A stretch of DNA of 57,861 nt from a virus. Lineage: Duplodnaviria > Caudoviricetes. The stretch is from the IMG/VR virus record IMGVR_UViG_3300048996_000092, positions 1 through 57,861 of that record. One strand, written 5' to 3'. A program made the position numbers and the translations under genes. Below are positions 8,583 through 57,861 of the stretch, one piece after another (the first letter of the stretch is position 1; every line of letters starts with the position of its first letter). A model generated the notes under the pieces. It searched no databases. It was given only the letters and a program-made list of their open reading frames with translations, and was not told the DNA's origin.

Positions 8583-8821
8583 AGCACCGAATGAGCGCGG
8601 CCGAATTTGGCCGCTGGATCGACTACTTCAACAAACACGGCCGAGTCGGACCTACGCGCATGTTCGACGGCGGCGCTGCCCTGATCGCGTGGAAGGTGGA
8701 TCACGTCATGGGCGGCAAAACGCAGATCAAAGACTACCTACCGTTCTATGTGGACCCGGAGCAAATCGCAACCGTGAACGACGTTATGAAGGCATTCGGC
8801 GGGATGACGTCGCGTGGCTAA
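8510..8821 (+). CDS. Tail assembly chaperone GT extension via -1 frameshift
   Basis: The -1 frame is open from GGGAAAC and reads LALHLGGTVGELKHRMSAAEFGRWIDY, a typical T-like motif. Confidence 0.8.
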   Translation, partial: GKRRAVEEVWCELALHLGGTVGELKHRMSAAEFGRWIDYFNKHGRVGPTRMFDGGAALIAWKVDHVMGGKTQIKDYLPFYVDPEQIATVNDVMKAFGGMTSRG

Positions 8822-11156
8822 CATCGGCTCGCTTGTAATCGACCTTCTGCTGTCCACCGCCAGCTTTGACACAGACCTTGATAGGCAGGCGAAGGCGCTA
8901 AAGAAGCGCGTCGCGGAGATCGGCCGTGACGCGCAGACGATCGGCAAACGGGTAGCACAGGGCGCGCTAGCTACGGCTTCCGCATTCACCATCATGGTGA
9001 AGTCCGCGATCAACACCGCGGACGATTTGCGGGACCTTGGGCAAGCCACCGGCGTCAGTGTCGCAAATCTTTCTGAACTGGAACACGCGGCGCACCTTTC
9101 TGGGGCCGGCATTGAGGATGTCGCCACTGCATTTCGTCGGCTGACCATCAGCGCGATTGAATCCAAAGACTCAAACTCCAAGGCGGCGGCGGCATTCAAG
9201 GCGCTCGGCGTCTCTGCCACAAACGCCGATGGCTCACTCAAAGGAAGTGAAGAGCTTCTGCTGGATATTGCCGATGGATTCAGCAAATTTGCTGACGGAT
9301 CAGGTAAGGCCGCCGTTGGCCAAGCGCTACTGGGGCGCAATGCACAGAAGCTGATCCCGTTGCTGAATGAAGGGCGCGCTGGCATCGAGGCATTCAAGGA
9401 TGAAGCCCGAGCGTTGGGGCTGACCATCACCGATGAGACGGCCGCGGCGGCTGATGAGTTCAACGACAACCTGACCCGGTTAAAGGGCGGCATCACAGGG
9501 ATTGCGCGCGAGGCTTCAGCGCGGCTGTTGCCGACGTTGGTCGGCATCACAGACCAGCTCGTGGAGTTTGCGAAAGACGGCGACGCCGTCAACAAGGTGG
9601 TCGACCAGATTGAGGCGGGATTCAAGGCCCTAATTTCGTTGGGCGTAGCCGTCAAGATTGTCTTCGACGTGGTCGGCGGAGCAATAGGAACTCTTGCAGG
9701 CGCTGCGGCCAAACTGACGAAGGGACTCACTGCGGCCGACTTTGTCTCGCCTGCGCGGCTGTTGTTCAAGGTTGGCCAAAACGCTATTGAAGCAGGCGAC
9801 GCCTTCGATCACCTCGGCGAAGGCTTCGGCGACATCGCCGATCAAGTGGGCAAGGACGTCAAGTTCATCGACGGCCTATGGAACGGCTTCGATGAAACGC
9901 TAAACGAAGTGGTAGTAACGGCGAAAAAAATCAAGCCGGTACTCAAGTTTGGTGACGAGGAAACCAGCAAGGCGGTTGCCAAGGCGACCAAGACGCTGGA
10001 GGAATTCCGCCAGGGTCTTCTGGAGCAGGTTGCAACGTTCGGCCTGGGTGAGGCGGCGGCGACCAAGTATCGGCTTGAGTTCGGCAATCTTTCCGATGAA
10101 GTCAAGAAGTCCGGCGAAAAGGGACTGGCGATAAAGGACGGCATCCTAGCTGCCGCGAACTTCAAGCAAGCCCAGGAAGACACCAAGCTCCTCGGCGAAG
10201 CCATCACCGACATCAACATTCAACTGGACGAGCTGGCCGGCAAGGACGTGTCGGCCGCGCTGTCTCGATTCGATCAGCAGAACGCGGAACTTCGCAAAAC
10301 CATCGCCCGCAGTGGCACAGCCGCGGACAAGGAAAAGCTGGACGCCTTGCGCGTCCAGATTGGCGCGCAGGCGGAGTTCAACCAGCTGCAGAAAGAGGCT
10401 GGCGCGATCACGGACGAGCTGGCGCGCGAAGAGGAGCGCATTAGGAACACACAGGAGACTGGCGCGCTAACCGAGCTGGACTCATTGCTTGCTCTCGATG
10501 AGGCGCGGAAGAAAGCGCTGGTGCAGCTGGAGGCCATTCACGCCAAGCAGAAGGAAATCGCCGCTCAAAGCGGTAACCCTGCGCTCATAGAGGGCGCGCA
10601 AAAGGCCGGGGCGGAAATCGACGCGCTGGCAGCGCAGACGGATCTACTCGCCAAAAAACTTCGGTCCGGTTTTGAAGACGCCGGCACTGACGCCTTTGCG
10701 GGGTGGATCAGCGGCGCACAGTCTGCTGGAGATGCCTTCGACCAATTTATCGGGGACATCGAAAAGCAGATCACTGCGTTGGTTGCAAAGCAGCTGGTGC
10801 AGAAACTGTTCAGCAGTTTTTTTGGCCAGACAGGAAACACCGGCGCCGCAGCAGCTGGCGGCGGATCGGGCGGTGGTACGGATTACTTTGCGCTCATCGC
10901 ATCACTGTTCGGTGGCGGCAAGGCGTACGGAGGTCCTGTTGCCGCCGGGACCATGTACCGCGTCAACGAGCGGGAACCGGAATTCTTCAAGCCAAACGTC
11001 GGCGGCAAAGTCGTCCCGCTTTCACAGATGGGCAACACAGGTGGTCAAGTGACGCAGAACATCAACGTGCGCGGCGATGTGACAGAGAAGAGCGCCCAAC
11101 AGTTGGCTGTTGAGACCGCCCGGCGGCAGCGCGCTGCAAGTTCAAGGCTGGGCTGA
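8814..11156 (+). CDS. Tape measure protein
   Basis: 780 aa, Ala-rich helical; N-term IGSLVIDL..TASF; C-term AYGGPV..YRVNEREPEFF. Confidence 0.93.
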   Translation: MANIGSLVIDLLLSTASFDTDLDRQAKALKKRVAEIGRDAQTIGKRVAQGALATASAFTIMVKSAINTADDLRDLGQATGVSVANLSELEHAAHLSGAGIEDVATAFRRLTISAIESKDSNSKAAAAFKALGVSATNADGSLKGSEELLLDIADGFSKFADGSGKAAVGQALLGRNAQKLIPLLNEGRAGIEAFKDEARALGLTITDETAAAADEFNDNLTRLKGGITGIAREASARLLPTLVGITDQLVEFAKDGDAVNKVVDQIEAGFKALISLGVAVKIVFDVVGGAIGTLAGAAAKLTKGLTAADFVSPARLLFKVGQNAIEAGDAFDHLGEGFGDIADQVGKDVKFIDGLWNGFDETLNEVVVTAKKIKPVLKFGDEETSKAVAKATKTLEEFRQGLLEQVATFGLGEAAATKYRLEFGNLSDEVKKSGEKGLAIKDGILAAANFKQAQEDTKLLGEAITDINIQLDELAGKDVSAALSRFDQQNAELRKTIARSGTAADKEKLDALRVQIGAQAEFNQLQKEAGAITDELAREEERIRNTQETGALTELDSLLALDEARKKALVQLEAIHAKQKEIAAQSGNPALIEGAQKAGAEIDALAAQTDLLAKKLRSGFEDAGTDAFAGWISGAQSAGDAFDQFIGDIEKQITALVAKQLVQKLFSSFFGQTGNTGAAAAGGGSGGGTDYFALIASLFGGGKAYGGPVAAGTMYRVNEREPEFFKPNVGGKVVPLSQMGNTGGQVTQNINVRGDVTEKSAQQLAVETARRQRAASSRLG

Positions 11157-46936: not shown

Positions 46937-48202
46937 ATGCCTAAGCAAGCCAAAAAATTGAGCGCGTTCCACGTGCACCGCCTGAAGAAGACACACGCCG
47001 TCGGCGGCGTCGCAGGTCTGTACCTCCAGGTCCGTGGTCCAAGCGCACGGAGCTGGATACTCAAGGCCCCTATCCATGGGAAGCGACCGAATCTCGGGCT
47101 CGGGTCGTTCCCGGAGATCAGTCTGGAAAAGGCGCGCATGCGTGCAACCGTAATGCGCGAGCAGATCAGGGAAGGAAAAGACCCACGAGACGTTCAGCGG
47201 CAAGCCGCTGATGAGGCGCGTGCGGCTGCAATGTCTTTGATCAAGTTCAAAGAGGCTGCAGAGGATTGCTGGAAGGCCAAGGCGGCGGAGTTCAAGAACG
47301 CCAAACACAAGTTGCAGTGGATTTCTACTCTGCGCCAATACGCCAACCCGCACATCGGCGACATGTACGTGCAGAGCATCGAACGTGCCCACGTCCTGAA
47401 AGCGCTGCAGCCGATTTGGCACACAAAGACTGAGACGGCCGGACGTCTTCGCGGCAGAATTGAAGCGGTCATCGAGTACGTTCATGCGGTGCTGGGAATC
47501 AAAAACCGCGAGAACGCCGCCAAATGGGAAGGGTTAAAACCGTTGCTGCCGTCGCCACGAAAGCTGACGCGGCGAAAGAGAAAGCATATGGCGGCCCTGC
47601 AATGGAAGCGCATGCCTGAGTTCATACCGCTGTTGATCAAACAGGATGGCATGGCGGCACGGTGTGAGGAGTTCGCCATCTTGACCGTTGCGCGCAACAC
47701 CGAAGCGCGCGGCGCCAGCTGGGACGAGATTGATATGGAAGAGGAGGTCTGGAGGGTGTCGGCGCCGCGCATGAAGGAGTCTCTGCCTCACCGGGTTCCG
47801 TTGAGCCCAGCGGCTATGGATCTTCTGCGTGCGCTGCCGCGCTTCGAGGGAACGTCACTACTGTTCCCAGGGCTCGCCGGTAAGCAGCTGTCGGAGAATA
47901 CGTTGGGCAAGGTGGTCAACCGCGTGACGGCGCAAATGCCTGGATCGCCAGAGGCGACGCCGCACGGGTTCAGGTCTGCATTCAAGGACTGGGCGCGTAG
48001 TCAGCCTGGGCACGAGGACGAAGTGTCTGAACTGGCACTTGCCCACGTCAATTCAGACGAGACGCGCGCGGCATACGCGCGAGACGAGCTGATGGAAAAG
48101 CGACGGGTACTGATGAACGACTGGGCGCGCTTTTGCTACGCACCGGTTACTGGCAATGTCGTGCCGTTCCGCAAGGAAGACCGGGCGGTGGCGGCGCTAT
48201 GA
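46937..48202 (+). CDS. int: P4-like tyrosine integrase with arm-DNA-binding domain
   Basis: GLYLQV..RSW..LGLGSFPEISLEKAR; catalytic R (TVARNTE), HGFR, ALAH, Y (RAAY). Confidence 0.95.
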   Translation: MPKQAKKLSAFHVHRLKKTHAVGGVAGLYLQVRGPSARSWILKAPIHGKRPNLGLGSFPEISLEKARMRATVMREQIREGKDPRDVQRQAADEARAAAMSLIKFKEAAEDCWKAKAAEFKNAKHKLQWISTLRQYANPHIGDMYVQSIERAHVLKALQPIWHTKTETAGRLRGRIEAVIEYVHAVLGIKNRENAAKWEGLKPLLPSPRKLTRRKRKHMAALQWKRMPEFIPLLIKQDGMAARCEEFAILTVARNTEARGASWDEIDMEEEVWRVSAPRMKESLPHRVPLSPAAMDLLRALPRFEGTSLLFPGLAGKQLSENTLGKVVNRVTAQMPGSPEATPHGFRSAFKDWARSQPGHEDEVSELALAHVNSDETRAAYARDELMEKRRVLMNDWARFCYAPVTGNVVPFRKEDRAVAAL

Positions 48203-48915
48203 GTAAGACGGGTGGCGCTAGCGCGCAGCACGGTTTGACGAATTCGGATTTCGTTGTCCTGCAGAAGCAGCGGAATGGTGTTGCAATGGACATTGGCGCC
48301 TTTCTAAAACTGCCCACCCAGGCATGCAGGCTGGAAACCGCCCTGTCACTGTTGAAGCGCGCTCGATCCACCATTCTGCAGGCTTGTGCCGCGCTTGACG
48401 AGGCTCACGTGTCTGCCCATGACATCCGGGCCAAGGCGCTTGCGGAGGTAATGCCAGCGCTGCCATCGCGCCAGTTTTCATTTCGCTGTACAGGGTGCAC
48501 AGCCGGCAGGCACACGACGCAAAAGATGGTCAGTGAGTGTGTTGCGCGAAAGGAAAGGCGCGACGCAGACCGCCGCCTCAAGATTGCCGCCGCGGCTAAG
48601 GCGGAAGTCAATGCCCCCCAATGCAAGAAGTGCTGGGACACAAAGCAGTTGACGCTTGCGGGCGGCGCCAAGATCCGCTGCCAGTTCTGCAAACCGAAGG
48701 TGGACCACCCATGATCGACAGAGAGCAGTTACACGACTTCGTGGCCGCGCACGGGTTCGGTGCGCCAACGGCGGATGGTTACATTGTCGGTCAGCAGCTG
48801 ATCGAGCATGGTGACGACTATGCAACCGCCGCGGCTGAGATCGTCGCTCGCGGCCTGACCGAAGACCCGGAATAGTGACGGCGCCGGAGCCGCGATGACC
48901 AGTGGGAGGCATCTA

Positions 48916-49446
48916 ATGAGAAGCACGAAATGCAAGCCGAGCCCATGCCCACAATGCCGCGCTAATCTTGATGTTGCCACCAGCGCTGTGGGAACCAAGG
49001 CATACCCCGGCGCAGTCAGTGTCTGTCTGTATTGCGGCCACATGCTGGAACTCGGCGAAGGGCTGGTGATCCGGTCGCTTGCGCCTGAGAAATTTCTGAA
49101 GCTTGAGCACGAGCAGCAACTGTACCTTGGCGTGGTGCGCGAACAGGTCATGAAAGACATCGCGGAAAAGAAAGCCGCCGCGGCGGCGCCGCGTGTCGTT
49201 CACTTACAGCGCGAGCGGTACGACGTGCGGATCGACCGGCAGACGCACTGGGGCAATCCGTTCGTGATAGGCAAGGACGGCAACCGAGAGCAGGTAATTG
49301 CCAAGTACCGCGCGTGGATCATGCAGCCTGACAACGCGCACATGATCGAAATGGCAAAGAAGGAATTGCGCGGCAAGGTTCTTGGCTGCTGGTGCGCGCC
49401 GAAACCGTGTCATGGTGATGTGTTGCTGGAGATTGCCAATGGTTAA
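48916..49446 (+). CDS. Zinc finger plus DUF4326-domain protein
   Basis: CPQC..CLYC; WGNPF..LRGKVLGCWCAPKPCHGDVL. Confidence 0.85.
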   Translation: MRSTKCKPSPCPQCRANLDVATSAVGTKAYPGAVSVCLYCGHMLELGEGLVIRSLAPEKFLKLEHEQQLYLGVVREQVMKDIAEKKAAAAAPRVVHLQRERYDVRIDRQTHWGNPFVIGKDGNREQVIAKYRAWIMQPDNAHMIEMAKKELRGKVLGCWCAPKPCHGDVLLEIANG

Positions 49447-49448
49447 GC

Positions 49449-49538
49449 GGAGGGGTGGCAGAGCGGTCGATTGCACCGGTCTCGAAAACCGGAGCGCTCG
49501 AAAGGGCGCCGCGAGTTCGAATCTCGCCCCCTCCGCCA
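49449..49538 (+). tRNA. tRNA-Ser(CGA)
   Basis: GGAGGGG/CCCCTCC acceptor stem, G discriminator, CCA; CCGGT-CT CGA AA-ACCGG anticodon arm; long variable arm; TTCGAAT T loop. Confidence 0.96.
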
Positions 49539-50821
49539 TTTTCAGGAGGAGCATGTGAGCGGCGGAAATCTTGACTACCTGTACGAGCGCATCACGGAGC
49601 TGTCGGAGCTGCTGCATCGCCGCCTCGGCGACACCGAGCGAACCTGGGAGGCTGGCGAGCGCGGACTGGTCCGTCTCTTTGCCCGTTCACTGGATGAGAC
49701 CGCGGAGGTTGCGCGTCAACTTGAATGGTACTGGTCTGGGGACACCGGTCCAGCAGATGCGCTCGCAGCGGTTCGCAAGGCTGTGGCGCACGTTAAGCGT
49801 GACGCCTGCGCCAAGTGCGGTGGCGAGCAAGGCGGCGTCCCTGGCAACGAGAACATCATCGAAGGCGATCCGATATGTGACTACTGCCATAGCTTGAGCA
49901 TGACCCCTGGGGGCGCCCCATGAAGTTCAGAGAGCACCGCGGCGGTCTGGAGGATTCAATGCGGACGGTGGTGGAAGTTGCGGACCGCACCGCCCTGGTC
50001 GCTCTGATGCAGAGCAGATTAGCCGCGTATAGCTACGCATTCGAGCCGCACCAATTGAGAGTTCAGCCGTACATGCGCGATGAGCGCATAGGGTGGGACA
50101 CGCACATAGTCACAATTGACGGGTACGGCGTCGCAGGGTTCACTGACGGGCCGGTTGAGGAACCGCCCCCCACGCCGCCGTCTCTGGAACGCGAAGAATG
50201 GACGCCGCAGCAAGCGCTTGAGTTCTACGCCGCCGGTCGGCACTTTGACGTCGTGAACGGTAGAACGCGAATCATCGACACCGGCGCAATTGCCAGTGAC
50301 GCGCTGAAACAGCTTTCGGCCGAGTATGCCCAACTGAAGGGGCTTGATCAGTCGCCGGAAGTCGTGCCAGGAACGGCAGCCGTCCTCGAGCTTTCTGGCG
50401 CGGGTCAAGCGCACGCCGAGCAGATGCGAACCGCCTTGCTGCGTCTTCAGAAATTGCAAGTGCACGGATCGAAGTCGGACAGGATGATTCTCGCCGCCCT
50501 CACGCCGCCCAAATCCGGCGAGCCCAACTGGTGCTCGCGGTGTGAGACCGCGCACAAGCAAGGGTGCGATGTTCATTGTCACCTGGAGAGCGACGGGGAT
50601 TGCAGCTGCTGACCGCGCCTGGAGGCGTTTCCAATGGCAGACATTTCAAAGTGCACCGGCGTCGACACAACCACGAAGGGAATCTGCCCCAAGCGTGAGA
50701 CGTGCTATCGGTTCACCGCGGTCAGTGCCGGCAACAGTCAGTCATGGCTTTCGCACGCGCCATTCGACAGGTACGGCCAATGCCTCTTGTACAAGCCAAC
50801 ATCACAAAAGAGAGCGGCCCG

Positions 50822-51115
50822 ATGAAGCCGGCATCCAGTACGAGCACCGTGCGCACCACACTGCAGGAGCTGCGCGAAATCATTGAGAAGTACCGCGCAA
50901 TAGAAGAATCAGAGCCCGGCGGGCTGCGATCAGCAAACGTTCGCGCGCGCATCCGCGGGTACGAATCAGACGCCTGGGAGGCTGCATATAAATGGCACCT
51001 CGGCATCACAGAGCAGCTGAGAATTGCTGCGGCTCAGCAGGACCCGCTCGGATGGGCCGAATGCGAACGAGAGCGCATTGAGGGCAACACCATGATTCGT
51101 GATCGTCTTGGATGA
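50822..51115 (+). CDS. Hypothetical protein, paralog of 40717..41019
   Basis: AWEAAYKWHLGIT..EGNTMIRDRL. Confidence 0.6.
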   Translation: MKPASSTSTVRTTLQELREIIEKYRAIEESEPGGLRSANVRARIRGYESDAWEAAYKWHLGITEQLRIAAAQQDPLGWAECERERIEGNTMIRDRLG

Positions 51116-51734
51116 CGCAATGAAGAAACCGCCGCCACGCCCGAAGCGCGAGAAGAAACCCGCCGCGCCCGGCGTCGTGATAATCAACATTCCAATGCCG
51201 ATCAACCTGACCATTGAGGCGATCGAAGTGCAGACGGTGCGCATATTGGGCCTTCTGGCGCAACCGCTACCCCTGAGTGACCAAGCGGAGCTGTACACGC
51301 GCATGGCCACGCGCTGCAGGGAACTGTCATACCTAGCGCGTCAGGGGGATGGATGAAACTCGTTGATACGCGAACCATCACGCTTCCCGCTGGTGCGCTC
51401 GTGGGCATGGTGATTGCGCGCGAGCTGGCATCCGATTTCACTGAGGCACTACAGGCGCTTGGTCGCGGTTGGATGATAATCCCGTCGATGTTTCCGCGCA
51501 TGGCTTACGTCGTTGCGGTCGCGACTACAAATGACCGAATGGATAAAGGGGCGCCGATGGTCTATGGCTGCACCAGGGAGCCGGAGCTGCGCGATATCGT
51601 GGAGCTGGCTTGCGAACAGCTGGAAGAGGGCGCCAGAGTGTTCTGGTTTCTGATCGTGCGCGACACCACGCAGCGCGCGCAGATATTGGATTGGATCAAA
51701 CCGTATTCAGAGCCAGAGCCGTTGCATTGAAAAG

Positions 51735-52128
51735 GGAACTGCGCCGCCGGTTCGCAGACCAGACGACGCAGCTCGCAGCAATTTCCGACGACCCAACGGC
51801 ACCCACCAACACACGGGGGCGTGTTCTGTAAGTTGAGCCGGTTGGCCACCACGGACAACGGGCCGCAGACCGCTGCAGCAAGGACCCCCTGGAGGCGGGG
51901 CCAGCTCTCACCAGATAGACGGGGGCACGGCCAAGGGTCACCCCCTGACCGTTGGCCTCTGGCGACCAGGAGGGGTTGGCCTGACGTCGAGTGGGGGTCT
52001 TTGCATGTGGTGGTGGAGATGTCGTGCGGCCCCATTTTTGGGGTTGCGATCGGCCGAAGGGCCCGCCCGGTCACGTATGCAGTCATGCAGCTGCGCGCCG
52101 ATTCTCTAGCGCACGACTCTCCACCACG
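51735..52128 (+). ncRNA. Candidate large structured ncRNA
   Basis: About 400 nt intergenic with nested long helices containing G-U pairs on the plus strand. Confidence 0.55.
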
Positions 52129-52171
52129 TTTCACTTTCACGCCACAACAAACAGCGGAGTAACTAAGGACA

Positions 52172-52702
52172 ATGCGTACTATCACAGTGATTGTGCTGAC
52201 CATGATTTTCGCGGCGCACGCGAACGCAGAGGGAGCGTTTCGAATTGGCATCGGCGGCGGACAGGCAACCATCGAGGCCGATGATCTGGACCTGAAAGGC
52301 AGCGCAACTGCCTGGGAAGTATTCGGCGGCTATGAGGCCAACGAGAACTGGGCCGTGGAGATCGGCTACATCGACGGCGGCAGCGCAGACGACAGTATCG
52401 GCAACGTCACAGTCGAGGCCGACACGACCACCTTTGTCGCCTCAGTGATCGGGTCCCTGTGGGTCGGCGATAACTTCAGCGTCTACGCGCGCGCGGGGCT
52501 GATGCACTGGGAGTCTGAAGAGGCGCTGAAGGTGAGCGGCGTAACCGTCGCCACCGATGACTTGGACGGTGACGATCCATTCTTCGGCGCCGGTGGCGCT
52601 CTGCTGGTGGATGGCGCATTGCTCAGGCTGGAGTATCGGTTGGCGAATCTTGACGACACCGACCTGTCACTCATTTCACTGGCGCTAGCGTGGAGGTTCT
52701 GA
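52172..52702 (+). CDS. Outer-membrane beta-barrel (OmpA-TM/Ail-Lom-like)
   Basis: Signal peptide (AHANA), VFGGY..WAVEIGYID, YARAG, C-terminal WRF. Confidence 0.88.
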   Translation: MRTITVIVLTMIFAAHANAEGAFRIGIGGGQATIEADDLDLKGSATAWEVFGGYEANENWAVEIGYIDGGSADDSIGNVTVEADTTTFVASVIGSLWVGDNFSVYARAGLMHWESEEALKVSGVTVATDDLDGDDPFFGAGGALLVDGALLRLEYRLANLDDTDLSLISLALAWRF

Positions 52703-52704
52703 GG

Positions 52705-52902
52705 ATGAAAAAGCTAGCGTTCGTTCTGCTGTTGACCGGCTGCGCCTCTACCGGAGGTGGCAGATATGCGCCGCCGCCCCAGTGTGACTCCACCGACGTG
52801 GTAGTTAGCGCAGCTCTTCCACAGCCAACGGACTTGCAGGACTTGGTTCGCCGACGCCAGGACGCGGAGCGCCGCGCGCGGTGTAAGGCTCAAGAAAGTT
52901 GA
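52705..52902 (+). CDS. Small lipoprotein
   Basis: MKKLAFVLLLTGC lipobox. Confidence 0.7.
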   Translation: MKKLAFVLLLTGCASTGGGRYAPPPQCDSTDVVVSAALPQPTDLQDLVRRRQDAERRARCKAQES

Positions 52903-52944
52903 GGGGTTGAATCACCATTCCCGGAGGACAACCCTTTCAACTGG

Positions 52945-52979
52945 TGGGCGTGTGGTGAAAGCTGCACGCCCATTTTTTT
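52945..52979 (+). terminator. Intrinsic terminator of the rightward arm
   Basis: TGGGCGTGTGG-loop-CTGCACGCCCA followed by T7. Confidence 0.85.
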
Positions 52980-53070
52980 GCCGAGGATAGGAGAGGGGAG
53001 GGCCGTGCGTGCCTGCCGTGCCCTCCATCCCTGGTGTTACCCCGCGAAGCGCCGCGGTGACGATGACGAT

Positions 53071-53162
53071 TAATAACCCGGTGTCTTAGCCACCTAAACG
53101 ACTTCCCCATAAAGTTTGGTGGAGGGGAAGACGGGATTCGAACCCGTGTTTCCGAGTGATCA
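53071..53162 (-). ncRNA. Circularly permuted tRNA-like structure (3' half precedes 5' half, no anticodon loop)
   Basis: Minus strand reads ACTCGG-AAAC-ACGGG TTCGAAT CCCGT-CTTCCCC-T-CCA, 11-nt linker, GGGGAAG-TC-GTTT AGGTGGCTA AGAC-A-CCGGGT. Confidence 0.8.
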
Positions 53163-53249
53163 TATGTGCTTTGCTTCGCGCCTTACGCTGACGATTGTTA
53201 GGTGATACGCAGACGAGGACTATCACTCTGACAATGACGACAACGCTAC

Positions 53250-54023
53250 CTAACTCTGTTTCAGCGGCTCCAGCAGTAGCGGCACGAGAATCGCCGCGAC
53301 TGAGCCTTTCACAACCTCTGTGTCATTCGCGCGCGTTCGCGCCTGTTTCACTTCAACCAGCAGCTCGTCGATCAGCTTAAGCGCTTCCGCTTTCTGTGAC
53401 GACGTTGCCGCGCCGCTGCGCTTAACGGTGGTGAATTTGCCGACCACCGCATCACGCTGAATGGCTTGAACCTGTGCAGGATGCTTCTCGGTCGCGGGCG
53501 ACATCACGACCGGGACAACCTGCTTTTCAGTCTTGGTCGTCTCTTCCGCGTACTTCGTGACATAGATGTGCGCGCCGACAGCTGCCGCCAGTTCCCAATG
53601 CTTGGTTGCGTCGAGCGTGGGGATCTCCGCGTAGAGTGCGCGCAGCTTGGTTATCCGCGCCTCAAGGCCCATCAGTTCGTCCACCGGCAGTCCGGCCAGA
53701 AGTTCCTTGCCGCGCCACATAACAGTGCCCGTTGCCACGCGGTTGGTCGCATTCTTCTGGAACTGCAAATCCTCGGCGCGGCCGAATATCTGAAGCGCGT
53801 ATTCCAGGGTGTCGAATACCGTGGTGGTAACCGGCTTCTCCTCGCGCGCCATGTCTTCAATATTTTGGTTTGCTGGACTGTCTTCGATCATTGACAGGCT
53901 CTTGCTGTGGCCGTCGAAGAAGTGGGAGACGTTCTTGAATTTCTTCAGCGTGTCCTCGTACAGCTGGTTCCATGCGCCGGTCGGCGTTTTTTCCGCGGCA
54001 AGCAACTCATGCAGCTTGGCCAT
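53250..54023 (-). CDS. Conserved helical protein (recalled as DUF7873-like; unverified)
   Basis: MAKLHELLAAEK..KNATN..IPTLD..ATEKHPAQV..SGA..ARTRAN; AAGGAG RBS; overlaps the upstream gene by 17 nt. Confidence 0.75.
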   Translation of the reverse strand: MAKLHELLAAEKTPTGAWNQLYEDTLKKFKNVSHFFDGHSKSLSMIEDSPANQNIEDMAREEKPVTTTVFDTLEYALQIFGRAEDLQFQKNATNRVATGTVMWRGKELLAGLPVDELMGLEARITKLRALYAEIPTLDATKHWELAAAVGAHIYVTKYAEETTKTEKQVVPVVMSPATEKHPAQVQAIQRDAVVGKFTTVKRSGAATSSQKAEALKLIDELLVEVKQARTRANDTEVVKGSVAAILVPLLLEPLKQS

Positions 54024-55458
54024 GAACTTCTCCTTTCGGTGCGTGTGGTTGATCAGGTTGTAGAGCCAGCGCGACCGCATTAGGACCGTCGCGCCATGCG
54101 CGCCACAGGTCACGAAGCAGTCGCTTCTCGACGTACCGTTGCGCGCGGCGATGCCAAAGCATCTTGGAGCCGTCAGGAACTTTCTGCTGTTCGAACACCT
54201 TGCGCGCGAGATACAGGTCGCGATACGCGCTCTGCTGCTTGAGAAGTGAGTCGCCTATTACAAACATGATAGATCGTCGCGCGGGCGAGTAACCCATGAT
54301 GTCGCCCTTCGCCTTCGACTTGCACGCGGCCTTGCCATCGACGACGTGCAAACCCATGCGCTTCCAAATCTTGGCCGGGCTGGAATAGTTACCCAGGTCG
54401 CCGCATTCGCCGACTATCTGCGCAAGGCCGAGATCGCCGAATCCATTCACTGCCTCTACCCATGGCCACACCGGCAACTGCTTCGCCAATTTCCGGCATT
54501 TGCGCTCGGCTTCCTTACGTTGCACGGCTAGGCCCGCGCGCACTTCAACTAGGGGCTGCACGTAGAGAGCGAGCTTGGGGTCAACACCACGCCGCTGGAC
54601 GTCACGTAAGTCGAGGTCTCCCCCAAGCTCCGCAGAAGAAGCGATGTCGGCAATAAGGACGTGGTTGTCACTATCAACGGGGCCTTCATCGCTTGAACGG
54701 ACGGGCGCGGCGGCAGATCCTATCTGGGAATCCGCGTCGTTCGGGCCGCACGCGCCCTGTGAAACCGCGATGTCGGCACGCTCGCCTTGGCGGTCGACAT
54801 GGACTTGGCCTTCATCGCTAGAAAGGTCGGGCGCAACGACAGGGCTTTCGCGGGAATCAGCGGATTTTTGGTCGTCAGCGCCCTTCAATTTGAGTGCGCC
54901 TACATAGCGGCGCTCGATTGACTTGATGACGAGCGTCATTGACTTTTCCGGTCGGTGGAAGTCCTGACGGCGCCGGTGCGCCTCTCGAATCAAGTGGCAT
55001 AGGTCGGAGAGGGAAGGCATTCCAGTTTCGGGCGACAGACCGACACAGCCCTTCCCCTCCGATGGAAGATCAGCGCAAGCGCGCAACGGTGTCGCGGGCT
55101 GCGGTTCCAGAATGGCACGCTCGGCTGATGGAAAGTTGGACGAGTCAGGCACCACGTTGCTGGGCGTCACGTCATTCGAGGCCTGATCGTCCGATGAAAC
55201 GTCAGCACCAGCGCGCATGGCGGTCGCGGACTGCAGTTCCAATATGGCGCGCTGTGCTGATGGAAGGTCGGGCGACGAATCAGGCAGGACCCTGTTGGGC
55301 GTCACCGAGGGTGTGGCCTGATCGTCCGTAGAGACAGAAGGGCGCGGCAGTCGCGTTCGGGATAGCACCGTCTCATGGGCCTTGCCCTTCTTTGATTGGC
55401 GCCGAGCCTTGACATTGCCGTTCTGGGCGTCAAGCACATGCGGGTCTCGACTCAGCAT
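54007..55458 (-). CDS. Nop/IS110-C-terminal-like RNA-binding protein (TasA-like, no recognisable nuclease) with in-frame guide arrays
   Basis: Coiled coil plus VNGFGDLGLAQIVGECGDLGNYSSPAKIWKRMGL..YRDLY..HRRAQRYVEKRLLRDLW; GAGGAG RBS; ATG overlaps the upstream stop. Confidence 0.8.
   Translation of the reverse strand: MLSRDPHVLDAQNGNVKARRQSKKGKAHETVLSRTRLPRPSVSTDDQATPSVTPNRVLPDSSPDLPSAQRAILELQSATAMRAGADVSSDDQASNDVTPSNVVPDSSNFPSAERAILEPQPATPLRACADLPSEGKGCVGLSPETGMPSLSDLCHLIREAHRRRQDFHRPEKSMTLVIKSIERRYVGALKLKGADDQKSADSRESPVVAPDLSSDEGQVHVDRQGERADIAVSQGACGPNDADSQIGSAAAPVRSSDEGPVDSDNHVLIADIASSAELGGDLDLRDVQRRGVDPKLALYVQPLVEVRAGLAVQRKEAERKCRKLAKQLPVWPWVEAVNGFGDLGLAQIVGECGDLGNYSSPAKIWKRMGLHVVDGKAACKSKAKGDIMGYSPARRSIMFVIGDSLLKQQSAYRDLYLARKVFEQQKVPDGSKMLWHRRAQRYVEKRLLRDLWRAWRDGPNAVALALQPDQPHAPKGEVHGQAA
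54569..54883 (-). repeat. TIGR-like stem-loop guide array B (5 units), inside the CDS
   Basis: 32-nt cores start (minus strand) at 54871, 54808, 54745, 54682 and 54616, each closed by a stem. Confidence 0.85.
55004..55455 (-). repeat. TIGR-like stem-loop guide array A (7 units), 5' part of the CDS
   Basis: 32-nt cores start at 55444, 55379, 55316, 55247, 55181, 55115 and 55049, each closed by a stem. Confidence 0.85.
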
Positions 55459-55988
55459 GACTTTGTCTCCTCGTACATACGCGCGATGACGTCCTCCCTC
55501 ACGGAATGCCTGACGCACCCGCGTGCTGGCATTTCATTGGCGAGGGCGAGCAGCCAGCGCTTCTTGTGGCCGTTGCCAAGTTCCTGCAGTTCGTGAATGC
55601 GCGCTTGCGCAACGAGGTCATCTCTGTTTGCTGCGCCTAGGCTCATACCGCTCGCGAGAGGCCAGTCATACCAGTTACGCTCTATCGCCGTGATCAGTGC
55701 GTCGCCGGCATTGCCGCGTGCGCGAGTCGTGTGCTGGATAGATTGCCGCGTGTGGCGCAATGCCAGACGGATGACGTCGTATGCTGCCTGCTCTTTGAAG
55801 CGATCCAGAGCGGCGCGATACACGGCTGGCTCCGCATCCATAAGTGCCATGAACTTTTCCGCCGCTGCCCTGATGTCGCTCCCTGATTCATCAAGGAACT
55901 TCCTAGCCAGGGCGGCGAGGGTGATGTTGGCATAGGATCGTCGACGCCAACGTTCCCCCTCACCAGCCGATTCGTGTGGCGCTGCCAT
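55452..55988 (-). CDS. Hypothetical helical protein coupled to the Tas-like gene
   Basis: AAGGA RBS; its stop overlaps the Tas-like ATG (ATGCTGA). Confidence 0.7.
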   Translation of the reverse strand: MAAPHESAGEGERWRRRSYANITLAALARKFLDESGSDIRAAAEKFMALMDAEPAVYRAALDRFKEQAAYDVIRLALRHTRQSIQHTTRARGNAGDALITAIERNWYDWPLASGMSLGAANRDDLVAQARIHELQELGNGHKKRWLLALANEMPARGCVRHSVREDVIARMYEETKSC

Positions 55989-55999
55989 AAAAATTCCTT

Positions 56000-56257
56000 T
56001 CAGTTGACTGGAAGCTCTATCACGTGCCAGACAAAGCGGCCGTCATCGCACGTGCCAACGTACTGGCCGCGGTCTGGGATCAGATGGCCGGTGCCGATGA
56101 TTCTGAAGCGGCGATCGCACTGCGCACCATCAATATCAACCTCTACCCAGATGCATAAATCCGCCTGCATCGCGACGCGGCGGACGATGGCGCCCATGCT
56201 CATCGGGACGTCATTGTCGACACCGTGCCGCAGCGGATACTTAAAGATGGTGCGCAC
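56000..56257 (-). CDS. Small phage hypothetical protein
   Basis: RTIFKYPL..CIWVEVD..IIGTGH..YVGT..FVWHV. Confidence 0.65.
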   Translation of the reverse strand: MRTIFKYPLRHGVDNDVPMSMGAIVRRVAMQADLCIWVEVDIDGAQCDRRFRIIGTGHLIPDRGQYVGTCDDGRFVWHVIELPVN

Positions 56258-56258
56258 G

Positions 56259-56489
56259 TCAGGTCTCAGCTGCAATCCGCGCCGGCACCTTGTGGTCGGC
56301 GATGCGGCACAACCACGCCAGTTGATTGACGGTGATGTATGTGCCCAGCCCGTGCCGATTCGCCTTCAACATCATTTCGGCGGCGAATTCCTGGTCACCC
56401 TCGCTGCGCGCCTGGGACTGCGCGTCGCCGCACAACTGACGGAATTCGTAATCGGTTGCGTACCAGTCTGCTGCGCTCGTCATGACCAA
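56259..56489 (-). CDS. Hypothetical protein
   Basis: Fills the gap in the minus-strand operon. Confidence 0.55.
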   Translation of the reverse strand: MVMTSAADWYATDYEFRQLCGDAQSQARSEGDQEFAAEMMLKANRHGLGTYITVNQLAWLCRIADHKVPARIAAET

Positions 56490-57296
56490 TCACCGGTTTT
56501 GGGTTGTGGGGATTTGAATGAACGGCGTGGCGCCGCCCATCATGTACTGCGGCATTTTTCCGTCCCACCTTTGCACGGCTTCCCATTCGATCAGCTTGGC
56601 GTTCTGTTCCAGCGCGTTGGCGCGGATGCGGATGGACTCTGCGTCCGCCTTCGCGTTGAGGATCGTCGCCTTGGCGTTTCCCGAAGCTGTCTCAACCTTC
56701 TGATTGGCCTGCTCGCGGATTTGCACCGTGTGGTTCTGTTCCTCGATCGCCTTCTGCTGCGCGATCACCTTGGCCTCTACGGCGTGCTCGAACTCGGGCG
56801 TGTAGTCGATGTTTGTCAGCTGGAAGCCGGTGACGATGACGTTGCGCGCGGCGAGCTTCGAGGTTACTTCCGCCTCGATGGCGCGTGACGCCTTGTCGCG
56901 CTGCGCGATGATGTCAACCGCCTCGTGTTGGCCGAACTCACGCTTGATGCTCTCGTGCAGCACCTGCCCGACCAGCTTTGCCGCCCACTCCACTCCGACC
57001 GTTTGAAAGACCATGTGCGCCCGCGTCGGATCAAGGCGGTACGTCAGCGTGAACAGCACCTTGGCCTGCTGCACATCGCGCGTGTACGCGGTGGATTCGC
57101 CATCCCACTTCTGCACGCGCGTATCCATCTGGATGACGTCAGACGTAAAGGGGTTGTACCAATACAGGCCCTCCGGCAGTGATTCAGACATCACCTTGCC
57201 GAAGCGTGTTTCAACGCCGCGGTGGCCGGTGTCGACTGTCTGCCAGCCGCAGCCGCTTAGAGTCATGATCGCCGCGAACAACAGAATGCTTTTCAT
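56490..57296 (-). CDS. SPFH/prohibitin (band 7) family protein with lipobox-like N-terminus
   Basis: VDTGHRGVETRFGKV..EGLYW, AYTRDVQ, FEHAVEAK, RWDGKMPQ; LSGC. Confidence 0.9.
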   Translation of the reverse strand: MKSILLFAAIMTLSGCGWQTVDTGHRGVETRFGKVMSESLPEGLYWYNPFTSDVIQMDTRVQKWDGESTAYTRDVQQAKVLFTLTYRLDPTRAHMVFQTVGVEWAAKLVGQVLHESIKREFGQHEAVDIIAQRDKASRAIEAEVTSKLAARNVIVTGFQLTNIDYTPEFEHAVEAKVIAQQKAIEEQNHTVQIREQANQKVETASGNAKATILNAKADAESIRIRANALEQNAKLIEWEAVQRWDGKMPQYMMGGATPFIQIPTTQNR

Positions 57297-57511
57297 TTCT
57301 TCAACTCCTGGGTTTCCCTGGTGACGTGCCACAAAACTGCGCGACCTGATGCGGAGAAAAGCGCCAGCGGCCAAATCGCGCACAGAAGTAGGCGCCGCGG
57401 GAACTTCGAGAACGTTCTGGCGAAAGCGAGGTCCGACAGCGCGACCAACAGAAAGCCCATCGCGCCAAGCGACCAGACCATGAGGCTGAAGACAAACAAT
57501 CGGATCATCAC
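57293..57511 (-). CDS. Small membrane protein
   Basis: Two hydrophobic segments with a WP motif; coupled to the SPFH gene. Confidence 0.55.
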   Translation of the reverse strand: MMIRLFVFSLMVWSLGAMGFLLVALSDLAFARTFSKFPRRLLLCAIWPLALFSASGRAVLWHVTRETQELKK

Positions 57512-57720
57512 GACGCCACCTCCATTTCCTGCAGGTGCTGCGCGTCGCACTGCTCAACCTGATCTTTAACCCAGCGCGTCGTTTGACTGGTGAGGCGCAC
57601 CGGTCGGGGGACGCGCCCCGTTTGCGTCCACCGCCAAATAGTTGCCGGGTGAACGCCATAGCGCGCGGCCATCTGCCGAACGCTTAGATAAACGATGTGC
57701 GGCGCCTGTTTTGTCATCAC
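57508..57720 (-). CDS. AlpA-family excisionase/regulator
   Basis: YLSVRQMAARYGVHPATIWRW..PRPVRL..TRW. Confidence 0.85.
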   Translation of the reverse strand: MMTKQAPHIVYLSVRQMAARYGVHPATIWRWTQTGRVPRPVRLTSQTTRWVKDQVEQCDAQHLQEMEVAS

Positions 57721-57861
57721 GCGCTCTCGCGCGTGTCGATGACGTATTGAGCGTACGCGCTGCGCAGCTCCTTCACGTCGACCATGCGGCGGCGCCGCCC
57801 CTTGGGCACAGTCTGGATGCGCCCAGTCTCGATGAACGTGCGATAGAACTGCGTGCGCGAC
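57717..57861 (-). CDS. Excisionase-like HTH protein, 5'-truncated by window
   Basis: Reads SRTQFYRTFIETGRIQTVPKGRRRRMVDVKEL; TGA overlaps the next GTG. Confidence 0.55.
   Translation of the reverse strand, partial: SRTQFYRTFIETGRIQTVPKGRRRRMVDVKELRSAYAQYVIDTRESA

What the first reader, a model, noticed from the sequence alone, without database searches (positions are those of the whole stretch)
54569..54883. Five guide units inserted in-frame within the coiled coil, with signs of dual RNA/protein selection
Seen: array B sits between helix LSDLCHLIREAHRRRQDFHRPEKSMTLVIKSIERRY and helix LALYVQPLVEVRAGLAVQRKEAERKCRKLAKQL, adding about 105 low-complexity residues. Unit spacings are 63, 63, 63, 66 in B and 63, 69, 66, 66, 66 between the last six units of A, all multiples of 3; only the first A spacing (65) is not. 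Many loop repeats begin TGA, and all 12 units use only the two frames in which this is not a stop. Inference: the arrays expanded under a requirement to stay translatable, so guide processing would cut the tas mRNA mid-ORF and give negative autoregulation.
Basis: partly seen in the sequence, partly recalled or inferred. Interest (0 to 1): 0.85.

Follow-up and report, generated by a model that had tools for sequence, protein, structure and literature searches.

The report
Guide RNA array inside tasA gene
A gene for an RNA-guided DNA-binding protein (TasA) carries its own twelve guide-RNA hairpins inside its reading frame, five of them at the tip of its coiled coil; the case is real and shows clear signs of dual coding, but the arrangement was reported in a 2026 preprint.

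Summary
On the minus strand, ORF 54007-55458 encodes a nuclease-less TIGR-associated protein (TasA). Its best sequence and fold matches in the PDB are TasR and TasH.

The ORF holds 12 stem-loop tigRNA units: 7 at the N-terminus (55004-55456) and 5 at 54569-54883. Each unit is a stem, CCN, 9 nt, NG, 4 nt, CCN, 9 nt, TG, then the closing stem. The stems covary.

Array B lies between two confidently predicted coiled-coil helices and encodes a disordered, acidic 105-residue loop.

Across 106 related loci:
- Helix 1 and the Nop domain share one open frame in 76 of the 76 loci where helix 1 was found; 13 of these carry tip units.
- In-ORF units avoid the codon phase that reads box D as Cys/Trp/stop: 4 of 339 inside, 104 of 276 outside.
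- In-ORF spacings are multiples of 3 about twice as often as extragenic ones.

The translatability constraint is therefore supported. Negative autoregulation by mRNA cleavage is untested.

In-frame intragenic stem-loop tigRNAs were already reported by Xu et al. (bioRxiv 2026), so this is a new member of a known kind.

The parts
54007..55458 (-). tasA ORF (483 aa from ATG 55458; stop 54007-54009). The start overlaps the stop of the upstream gene; GGAG lies 8 nt upstream.
   Evidence: Sequence match to TasR 9mty_A, E 1.6e-10. Top Foldseek hits are TasR and TasH.
55004..55456 (-). Array A: 7 stem-loop tigRNA units (a1 55401-55456, a2 55336-55391, a3 55274-55326, a4 55202-55260, a5 55138-55192, a6 55069-55129, a7 55004-55062). 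They encode the disordered N-terminal residues of about 1-150.
   Evidence: pLDDT below 55; 0 stops in the tas frame against 3 and 7 in the other frames.
54884..55003 (-). Coding core of coiled-coil helix 1, the only 120 nt between the two arrays. The helix ends extend into the a7 3' stem and the b1 5' stem.
   Evidence: AF2 helix 150-193, pLDDT 96-98. A helix-1 HMM hits 76 loci, always in frame with the C-terminal domain. 'Protein core' residues are 88% identical to P0002.
54569..54883 (-). Array B, the finding: 5 stem-loop tigRNA units (b1 54829-54883, b2 54767-54818, b3 54703-54757, b4 54639-54694, b5 54569-54633). All are in codon phase 2 and together encode a 105-aa acidic disordered loop at the coiled-coil tip.
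   Evidence: AF2 residues 194-293 have low confidence. Net charge -13.
54010..54568 (-). Coiled-coil helix 2 (aa 294-326) and the Nop-type C-terminal domain (aa 331-465).
   Evidence: weak Pfam Transposase_20 hit at aa 355-426.
55452..55988 (-). Upstream gene, 178 aa, no known family. Its stop overlaps the tas start, and it is a conserved neighbour of tas.
   Evidence: tblastn finds relatives in 15 of 111 loci, upstream of tas on the same strand in 14 and downstream in 1 (L047). No Pfam, PADLOC or Atlas assignment.
53250..54023 (-). Downstream gene (DUF7873). Its ATG at 54023 overlaps the 3' end of tas.
   Evidence: Pfam PF25283, E 1.7e-61; sequence reading. No relative found next to tas in the 111 loci.

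Best explanation
The minus-strand gene 54007-55458 is a nuclease-less TIGR-associated protein (TasA: coiled-coil hairpin plus Nop-type domain) of the stem-loop class, carried on an integrated mobile element.

All 12 of its detectable guide units lie inside its own reading frame: 7 in the N-terminal region and 5 (54569-54883) as an insertion at the tip of the coiled coil. Each unit is an RNA hairpin of 52-65 nt. A variable, covarying stem encloses box C (CCN), a 9-nt spacer, box D (NG), 4 nt, box C' (CCN), a second 9-nt spacer and box D' (TG).

The same nucleotides are translated into disordered linker peptide. This works because the units sit only in the two codon phases in which the boxes do not read as Cys/Trp/stop, and because arrays grow and shrink mostly in steps that are multiples of 3.

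Shown here: the identity of the protein, the RNA architecture and covariation, the in-frame status, and the comparative signature of dual constraint.

Inferred: the units are transcribed with tas, folded, bound by the TasA dimer and trimmed by host RNases to tigRNAs. These would guide nuclease-free DNA binding, that is, transcriptional repression, as shown for other TasA proteins by Xu et al. One transcript then cannot serve both as intact mRNA and as processed guides. TasA binding or cleavage at embedded units would lower TasA synthesis; unit a1's stem begins directly after the AUG. I put this negative feedback at roughly 35-40%.
For: Protein:
- phmmer against the PDB gives one hit, 9mty_A, E 1.6e-10, aa 321-456. 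9MTY is the TasR RNP of Faure et al..
- The AF2 model has helices 150-193 and 294-326 and a C-terminal domain at pLDDT 90-98. Residues 1-149 and 194-293 are disordered.
- Foldseek ranks TasR (9.5e-6) first, then TasH, then IS110 recombinases, then Nop5/Prp31.

RNA:
- There are 12 units with a fixed 32-nt core.
- Stems covary.
- The covariance model finds 12 of 12 units in the window, all on the tas strand and none elsewhere.
- In relatives, 142 of 143 hits and 307 of 308 hits are on the tas strand. My own scanner finds 681 units on the tas strand against 5 on the opposite strand.
- The family consensus has informative boxes and information-free spacers.
- The architecture matches the stem-loop definition of TIGRFinder.

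Dual constraint:
- Frame-specific openness.
- 76 of 76 loci have helix 1 and the C-terminal domain in one open frame; 13 of them carry tip units.
- Phase 0 is used by 4 of 339 units inside ORFs and 104 of 276 outside.
- Spacings divisible by 3: N 76/116, tip 18/21, preCT 32/45, C 5/7, against upstream 50/116 and downstream 14/51.
- Against the nearest homologue P0002, residues encoded by stems are 86% identical, protein core 88%, and spacer-encoded residues only 22%. P0002 also carries a 42-aa (126-nt) extra block in array A.
- A Shine-Dalgarno-like GGAG motif followed by ATG lies shortly before the first in-frame unit in many relatives.

Precedent: Xu et al. report in-frame intragenic stem-loop tigRNAs, small-RNA-seq reads from units inside BlTasA, and repression by TasA (sections read).
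Against: - There is no expression or processing data for this locus; no listed run is on record as RNA.
- No target was found for any spacer pair in the only DNA available, the 57.9-kb contig. The best match has 2 mismatches, which is at chance level.
- Only 2 of 12 units carry the exact TIGRFinder box set in both halves; the rest are single-base variants (listing).
- 'Inside the ORF' is partly circular as a class, because units with in-frame stops cannot be inside. About 46% of cores would carry a stop in phase 0, so part of the phase bias is definitional.
- Related loci are not independent samples.
- For array A, an alternative start (ATG 55023-55021) would make it a 5' leader.
- The simple sigma-70 scan found no internal promoter, but this is weak evidence either way.
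- The autoregulation step has no direct support.
Confidence: 0.75

Rival explanations
1. Only array B is truly intragenic. Translation starts at the ATG at 55023-55021, at the 3' edge of unit a7, and array A is an untranslated 5' leader array that merely happens to be open in frame.
For: - An ATG lies immediately before helix 1.
- Upstream extragenic arrays are common in relatives: 179 'up' units.
- A 146-codon open stretch at 62% GC is unlikely but not impossible.
- The first A spacing (65) is not a multiple of 3.
Against: - Array A has 0 stops in the tas frame, against 3 and 7 in the other frames.
- No unit is in phase 0.
- ATG 55458 has GGAG 8 nt upstream and overlaps the upstream gene's stop, a sign of translational coupling. 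No comparable Shine-Dalgarno-like motif was seen before 55023.
- Predicted homologues P0002-P0004 start with the same MLS... N-terminus.
- 'N' arrays in relatives show the same phase-0 avoidance (2 of 200) and excess of multiples of 3 (76 of 116).
- SD-ATG is followed by in-frame units in many loci.
Confidence: 0.17
2. The embedded units are fossils: former guide units that now persist only as tolerated disordered linker sequence, with no RNA function.
For: - No target and no RNA data.
- Several boxes deviate from the family consensus: a7 has GCT, b3 has GG, and CCC, CCG and CCT variants occur (listing).
Against: - All 12 stems are intact, with compensatory changes.
- The four anchor bases of the core (first base of each box C, last base of each box D) are kept in 135 of 142 family units.
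- Stem-encoded residues are as conserved as the protein core (86% against 88%), while spacers have turned over (22%). That is the pattern of working guides, not of a free linker.
- No extragenic unit exists in this window that could serve instead.
Confidence: 0.08
3. It is a protein repeat only: a tandemly repeated low-complexity peptide. The hairpins and motifs are by-products of repeated codons.
For: The region encodes repetitive peptide motifs; direct repeats of 132-135 nt are reported.
Against: - The same nucleotide unit occurs in two codon phases within this gene, giving different peptides.
- In relatives it also occurs outside any tas ORF (276 units).
- Conservation lies in base pairing and box nucleotides, not in peptide sequence.
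- The strand bias is 681 to 5.
Confidence: 0.02
4. The units are real guides, but they are made from promoters internal to tas or are otherwise uncoupled from the mRNA. Their placement in the ORF then reflects only compaction and permissive disordered sites, with no autoregulation.
For: - Xu et al. state that internal promoters cannot be excluded (Discussion).
- Units occur upstream, inside and downstream in relatives, which suggests that position is flexible.
- The gene sits in a tightly packed, overlapping operon.
Against: - No sigma-70-like site on either strand in 53000-57861, where 1.3 are expected by chance; this is weak evidence.
- Unit a1 starts 2 nt after the A of the AUG, so at least that unit must overlap the translation-initiation region.
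Confidence: 0.35

Closest known systems
Intragenic stem-loop tigRNAs in tas genes (Xu et al., bioRxiv 10.64898/2026.09.09.750476; BlTasA of Bifidobacterium longum). I read sections 5, 6, 7, 11 and 13 and searched passages; figures and supplements were not seen.
   Same: - Stem-loop TIGR units lie inside the tas coding sequence without breaking the frame and map to disordered segments.
- The protein is a nuclease-less TasA.
- The authors suggest a link between tigRNA maturation and Tas translation.
- They note longer coiled-coil tips and long disordered N-termini in stem-loop Tas proteins.
   Different: - The worked example, BlTasA, has its embedded units in the wedge loop and also has extragenic units. 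Here the internal array is at the coiled-coil tip (100 aa, against 3 aa in TaTasR as partitioned in their Methods).
- All 12 units here are intragenic, covering 682 of 1449 coding nt by the unit extents, or 768 nt for the two array spans with their linkers.
- The word 'autoregulat' does not occur in that text.
- I did not find the codon-phase rule or the excess of multiples of 3 in the sections I read. Fig. 1d and the supplementary tables, which I could not see, may cover tip arrays and this clade.
Stem-loop TIGR arrays with TasA (Faure et al., Science 2025, PMC12045711; sections 6, 9 and 24 and passages read).
   Same: - Tandem hairpins, each enclosing two 8-12-nt spacers bracketed by box C/D-like motifs.
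- A TasA protein with a coiled coil and an RNA-binding C-terminal domain.
- Units processed one per hairpin.
   Different: The arrays described there are intergenic sub-arrays; here they lie within the ORF.
TaTasR / SpTasH dual-repeat TIGR systems (PDB 9MTY, 9VZX, 9W02)
   Same: - Homologous Nop-type domain and coiled-coil dimer scaffold.
- 9-nt tandem spacers.
   Different: - No RuvC or HNH domain here.
- No conserved edge or loop repeats and no 36-nt unit.
[quoted passage not shown]
IS110-family recombinases with bridge RNA (IS621, ISCro4)
   Same: Distant fold similarity of the coiled coil plus C-terminal domain (Foldseek E 0.06-0.3). Pfam Transposase_20 and PHROG 'transposase' labels.
   Different: - No N-terminal DEDD/RuvC domain.
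- The RNA is a tandem array of short hairpins, not one bridge RNA.
- Tas structures match far better.

Membership tests
TIGR-Tas, stem-loop class, TasA | Nop-type C-terminal domain homologous to solved Tas proteins | tested here: met
   9mty_A at E 1.6e-10 is the only PDB sequence hit. Foldseek ranks 1-5 are TasR and TasH.
TIGR-Tas, stem-loop class, TasA | Two-helix coiled-coil hairpin preceding the C-terminal domain | tested here: met
   AF2 helices 150-193 and 294-326 at pLDDT 88-98. The alignment register to the end of TaTasR helix 2 is. Helix packing in the model was not measured separately.
TIGR-Tas, stem-loop class, TasA | No RuvC or HNH nuclease domain (distinguishes TasA from TasR and TasH) | tested here: met
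   No Pfam domain in the N-terminal region. Residues 1-149 are predicted disordered.
TIGR-Tas, stem-loop class, TasA | Tandem units, each with two ~9-nt variable spacers bracketed by short box C-like and box D-like motifs, and ~9 nt between the spacers | tested here: met
   12 units with cores CCN-N9-NG-N4-CCN-N9-TG. The PWM of 142 family units has information only at the boxes.
TIGR-Tas, stem-loop class, TasA | Variable palindromic stems (at least 5 bp) flanking each spacer pair | tested here: met
   8-14 pairs per unit. 12 of 13 pairs show double changes; 75% of cells are paired against 52.7% in shuffles.
TIGR-Tas, stem-loop class, TasA | Exact TIGRFinder stem-loop box set (box C is CCA, CGA, CTA or CAA; box D is TG or CG) in both halves | tested here: inconclusive
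   By my reading of the listing against the rules quoted, 2 of 12 units (a3, b2) are perfect and the rest differ by one base in one or more boxes. TIGRFinder itself was not run.
TIGR-Tas, stem-loop class, TasA | Units expressed, processed to discrete tigRNAs and bound by Tas | not testable with these tools
   No listed sequencing run is on record as RNA.
TIGR-Tas, stem-loop class, TasA | DNA target complementary to spacer A on one strand and spacer B on the other | tested here: inconclusive
   Only the 57.9-kb contig could be searched. The best hit has 2 mismatches in 18, which is chance level. The exact target geometry was not stated in the texts I read, so both symmetric arrangements with gaps of 0-6 were scanned.
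IS110-family transposase | N-terminal DEDD/RuvC-like catalytic domain | tested here: not met
   No such Pfam hit and no folded N-terminal domain.
Archaeal/eukaryotic box C/D sRNA with Nop5 | Canonical RUGAUGA and CUGA boxes (recalled definition) and a match to a curated C/D family | tested here: not met
   The Rfam scan of 53000-56200 gives no snoRNA or sRNA family. The boxes here are CCN and TG. Nop5 fold matches are weak, E above 1.

The most novel reading that the evidence does not exclude
The tasA transcript is a true bifunctional molecule, and this fixes the protein-to-guide ratio. TasA binds the hairpins in its own mRNA, starting with a1 at the AUG, and this binding or the trimming that follows shuts off its own translation.

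In addition, the codon phase of the embedded units is selected for the peptide it yields. Tip units use phase 2 in 31 of 35 cases, which turns box D plus loop into Asp-rich codons. The result is an acidic (net -13) disordered tip on an otherwise basic DNA-binding dimer. This tip could act as an intramolecular nucleic-acid mimic that gates DNA binding until a guide is loaded.
Probability: 0.2. Interest if true: 0.75.

Novelty: new member of a known kind. Interest (0 to 1): 0.5.

Why it matters
This is a clean natural case of the same nucleotides being selected both as structured guide RNA and as translated protein. The selection leaves a measurable signature: one codon phase is excluded, array growth is biased to steps of 3, stems are conserved and spacers turn over.

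About half of this tas gene is guide array, and no guide lies outside the ORF. The locus is therefore a good test bed for a question the TIGR-Tas literature leaves open: whether intragenic tigRNAs come from the tas mRNA, and whether guide maturation and Tas translation are coupled.

The comparative set assembled here also shows the family in many cultured Alphaproteobacteria genomes, probably on integrated elements. That would make native-host experiments feasible.

Tried and rejected
- Tandem Repeats Finder found no array at 50000-57861. The units are too divergent, so periodicity had to be found by motif.
- A very relaxed motif-plus-stem scan gave as many hits on the wrong strand as on the right one and was discarded. 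It was replaced by covariance models and by a PWM-plus-stem scanner calibrated on the opposite strand (139 of 142 recovered, 3 wrong-strand hits).
- My first ORF classification gave the window a wrong frame anchor, so its window rows are meaningless. This was redone with HMM-anchored frames.
- The final scanner finds only 10 of the window's 12 units. R2 at E<=0.05 lists 11 of 12.
- Self-target search: nothing above chance. Searching public viral collections for 18-nt split targets was not attempted, because by my own estimate about a dozen chance hits per pattern are expected. Xu et al. make the same point.
- Target geometry was not recoverable from the texts read.
- Sequencing runs: no RNA holder listed. 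The only holder is a soil metagenome that may be the source.
- The upstream 178-aa protein has no Pfam, PADLOC or Atlas assignment. A ParB-like identity was considered because of the TasParB association in Faure et al.; it was not tested by structure, and sequence searches do not support it.
- DUF7873, DUF7352, the 76-aa protein and the SPFH-like protein have no tblastn relatives beside tas in the 111 loci.
- A CUU processing motif was looked for: CTT occurs in 5 of 10 short linkers and TTC in 8 of 10, too weak to claim.
- The careful tree did not finish; only the quick tree is reported. Rows with fewer than 140 matched C-terminal-domain HMM positions were left out, as were 6 duplicate loci (99 rows used). 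L032, the window's nearest row, is a contig cut inside tas, so its 'tip0' label carries no information.
- Thirty of the 106 loci had no detectable helix 1, through truncated contigs or divergence, and could not be tested for frame breaks.
- P0002's own DNA was not among the returned loci, so the nearest-homologue comparison is at protein level only.
- Supplementary files and figures of Xu et al. and Faure et al. were not seen. They may already list this clade and tip-located arrays.
Full report
WHAT IS THERE. The finding lies in a minus-strand ORF, 54007-55518 as listed. The likely start is ATG 55458. GGAG lies 8 nt upstream of it, and it overlaps the stop of the upstream ORF 55452-55988. This gives a 483-aa protein (P0001).

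On the minus strand I found a repeated 32-nt core: CCN, 9 nt, NG, 4 nt, CCN, 9 nt, TG. It is flanked on both sides by mutually complementary arms. Core starts are 55444, 55379, 55316, 55247, 55181, 55115 and 55049 (array A) and 54871, 54808, 54745, 54682 and 54616 (array B).

The relaxed core pattern is expected about 28 times per strand in the whole window. It occurs 13 times in the 830 nt of the arrays: 11 units and 2 off-register hits. Unit a7 has a degenerate first box. Tandem Repeats Finder sees nothing here. The units share architecture, not sequence.

THE RNA SIDE.
- All 12 units fold with a terminal stem of 8-14 pairs. Several have a 2x2 internal loop two pairs from the core.
- In an ungapped alignment of the 12 units, 12 of 13 stem pairs show changes on both sides. 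75% of cells are paired, against 52.7% in shuffles (0 of 500 as high) and 36-47% when the partner is slid.
- A covariance model built from the 12 units hits only those 12 places in the 57.9-kb window, all on the minus strand.
- Rfam has no family for them.

THE PROTEIN SIDE.
- The only PDB sequence match is 9mty_A (E 1.6e-10, aa 321-456). This is the TIGR-TasR RNP of Faure et al..
- The AlphaFold2 model was built on 59 homologues. It has helix 150-193 (pLDDT 96-98), helix 294-326, and a helical C-terminal domain at 331-465 (pLDDT 90-98). Residues 1-149 and 194-293 are low-confidence coil.
- Foldseek against the PDB ranks TasR first (9.5e-6), then TasH, then IS110-type recombinases, then Nop5/Prp31 weakly.
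- There is no nuclease domain.

The protein is therefore a TasA. Array A encodes its disordered N-terminus. Array B encodes a 105-residue disordered loop between the two coiled-coil helices, that is, at the coiled-coil tip. That peptide is acidic: 17 Asp and 5 Glu against 9 Lys plus Arg, net -13. The rest of the protein is basic.

FIT TO THE KNOWN SYSTEM. Faure et al. (section 9) describe stem-loop TIGR arrays: hairpins with variable palindromic stems that enclose two 8-12-nt spacers flanked by box C/D-like motifs. Xu et al. give detection rules (Methods passage): box C is CCA, CGA, CTA or CAA; a 9-nt spacer; box D is TG or CG; two such intervals at most 15 nt apart; a stem of at least 5 bp. 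The units here match this plan. The 9 nt between their spacers (TG, 4 nt, CCA) equal the usual 'loop' length quoted by Xu et al.. Only 2 of 12 units carry the exact box set in both halves; the others are one-base variants (listing).

This locus is of the stem-loop class.

RELATIVES.
- A protein search found 451 relatives at E<=0.001 among the 8000 candidates scored. The 120 listed are 266-503 aa long. The length differences lie in the N-terminus and between the two helices.
- I fetched 31 loci from species genomes. I also fetched 80 from metagenomes, the best 80 of 239 confirmed.
- A second model (R2) gave 143 hits in the first set, 142 of them on the tas strand. It gave 308 hits in the second set, 307 on the tas strand.
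- My PWM-plus-stem scanner recovered 139 of 142 model hits with 3 wrong-strand hits in calibration. Over all 112 sources it found 681 units on the tas strand and 5 on the opposite strand.
- The family consensus is GG-CCA-N9-TG-nnAC-CCA-N9-TG-CC, with essentially no information in the spacers.

(a) Frame-breaking arrays at the tip would refute it. Six duplicate loci were dropped, leaving 106. A helix-1 HMM searched in all three forward frames found helix 1 in 76 of them. In all 76 it is in the same frame as the Nop domain, with no stop between. 13 of these, the window included, carry 1-5 units between helix 1 and the domain. The other 30 loci could not be judged.

(b) Codon phase. In phase 0, CCA is read as a codon. 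Box D then reads as TGN (Cys, Trp or stop), and the closing TG plus C reads as Cys.
- Phase 0 holds 4 of the 339 units that lie in the tas open frame.
- It holds 104 of the 276 units outside it.
- By array, phase 0 is the phase of the first unit in 4 of 150 in-frame arrays and 36 of 109 outside arrays.
- Part of this is definitional, because in-frame units cannot hold stops.
- Only about 46% of cores would have a stop in phase 0, against 9-17% in the other two phases. From these stop-free fractions I estimate that stop avoidance alone would leave roughly 10-23% of in-frame units in phase 0. About 1% are observed.
- This points to additional selection on the peptide, against Cys/Trp or for the hydrophilic readings.

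(c) Spacing.
- Multiples of 3 make up 76 of 116 (N-terminal), 18 of 21 (tip), 32 of 45 (before the domain where helix 1 was not found) and 5 of 7 (C-terminal) in-frame spacings.
- Outside, they make up 50 of 116 upstream and 14 of 51 downstream spacings.
- Without the window the totals are 126 of 183 against 64 of 167. A bootstrap over loci gives a difference of 0.30 (95% interval 0.18-0.42; 0 of 2000 resamples at or below zero).
The real rule is 'never phase 0', and multiples of 3 are its easiest solution.

(d) Conservation pattern. Against the nearest homologue P0002:
- Residues encoded by stems are 86% identical (87 of 101).
- Protein core is 88% (181 of 205).
- Spacer-encoded residues are 22% (16 of 72).
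- P0002 has a 42-residue (126-nt) extra block in array A.
The guides have turned over and units have been gained or lost, yet the frame has held.

(e) Tip arrays are clustered on a quick tree of the Nop domain but need several changes: 7 by parsimony, at least 2 forced by well-supported branches. Unit number varies within clades, 2-4 and 3-5. The careful tree did not finish.

IS ARRAY A TRANSLATED? The tas frame has no stop across array A, while the other two frames have 3 and 7. The start at 55458 has a Shine-Dalgarno-like GGAG motif and is coupled to the upstream gene. Homologues P0002-P0004 begin with the same residues. In many relatives an SD-ATG is followed within 4-90 nt by in-frame units. 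An alternative start at ATG 55023, at the edge of a7, cannot be excluded without protein data. I give it about 17%.

MECHANISM.

Shown: identity, architecture, in-frame status, and the dual-constraint signature.

Inferred from the family (Faure et al. section 9; Xu et al. sections 11-13): the units are transcribed on the tas strand, fold, are bound by the TasA dimer and are trimmed by host RNases. The RNP then binds DNA through the two spacers and represses transcription.

No sigma-70-like promoter was found within 53000-57861. The genes from 57720 down to 53250 are packed or overlapping on the minus strand. Co-transcription with tas is therefore the simplest reading. If so, a transcript that is trimmed into guides is lost as mRNA, and also as mRNA for the downstream DUF7873 gene. 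In addition, a1's stem starts 2 nt after the A of the AUG, so TasA bound there could block initiation.

It is plausible (about 35-40%) but untested. [quoted passage not shown] No spacer pair matches the contig beyond chance, and no RNA data exist for the locus.

CONTEXT.
- The contig comes from a soil metagenome.
- It holds phage tail genes at 8.8-20.4 kb and an integrase at 46937-48202, next to tRNA-Ser at 49449-49538.
- The tas operon lies beyond that, next to a fragment matching the 3' end of tmRNA at 53102-53148.
- It is followed by an AlpA-like ORF near the contig end, by my reading. This suggests a separate element integrated at ssrA.

NOVELTY. In the library searched, the only paper holding both 'tigRNA' and 'intragenic' is Xu et al.. 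It already reports in-frame intragenic stem-loop arrays at the 5' end, 3' end and internal regions, with BlTasA (wedge loop) as the worked example.

This locus is a further and rather extreme member. All 12 guides are intragenic, about half the ORF is array, and the internal array is at the coiled-coil tip. I did not find the quantitative phase rule or the excess of multiples of 3 in the sections I read. Figures and supplements were not available to me.

Noticed in passing
window 53102-53148 (-): A short match to the 3' end of tmRNA (Rfam RF00023, model positions 346-363 of 374, E 0.0019, below gathering score), with no full tmRNA or tRNA called there. It looks like an att-site copy, so the tas-bearing element may be an island integrated at ssrA.
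   Followed up: partly
window 55452-55988 (-): A 178-aa protein of no known family is translationally coupled to tas. tblastn finds relatives in 15 of 111 loci, upstream of tas on the same strand in 14 and downstream in 1 (L047). It is a possible conserved TasA partner. No Pfam, PADLOC or Atlas assignment.
   Followed up: partly
window 53250-54023 (-): A DUF7873 gene (Pfam E 1.7e-61) starts inside the last codons of tas. No relative of it was found beside tas in the other 111 loci.
   Followed up: partly
related loci, units straddling the tas stop ('edge' class): Of 20 units that overlap an end of the tas open frame, 12 are in phase 0. This suggests that the tas ORF often runs into a flanking array until the first phase-0 unit supplies the stop, through TGA at box D plus loop.
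   Followed up: no
L009, L010, L012, L017, L019, L022/L023, L024, L027-L031 (genome contigs): This TasA clade, with arrays, occurs in cultured Alphaproteobacteria: Magnetospirillum, Bosea, Methylobacterium, Aminobacter, Mesorhizobium, Rhodoplanes (two identical copies on one scaffold), Erythrobacter, Rhizobium, Shinella, Metarhizobium and Zhengella. Xu et al. call CPR bacteria the only known non-viral hosts with arrays. These loci are probably prophages or islands, but that was not checked.
   Followed up: no
window 46937-49538 (+): A tyrosine-integrase-like gene (PHROG 1, E 1e-30) lies directly before tRNA-Ser(cga), downstream of phage tail genes (tape measure at 8814-11156). This is a prophage end distinct from the tas element.
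   Followed up: no
window 54569-54883 and tip units of 13 loci: Tip units use codon phase 2 in 31 of 35 cases; 9 of 13 loci use only phase 2. N-terminal units are split 111 to 87 between phases 1 and 2. Phase 2 gives Asp/Glu-rich peptide and phase 1 gives Leu/Met/Val-rich peptide.
   Followed up: partly
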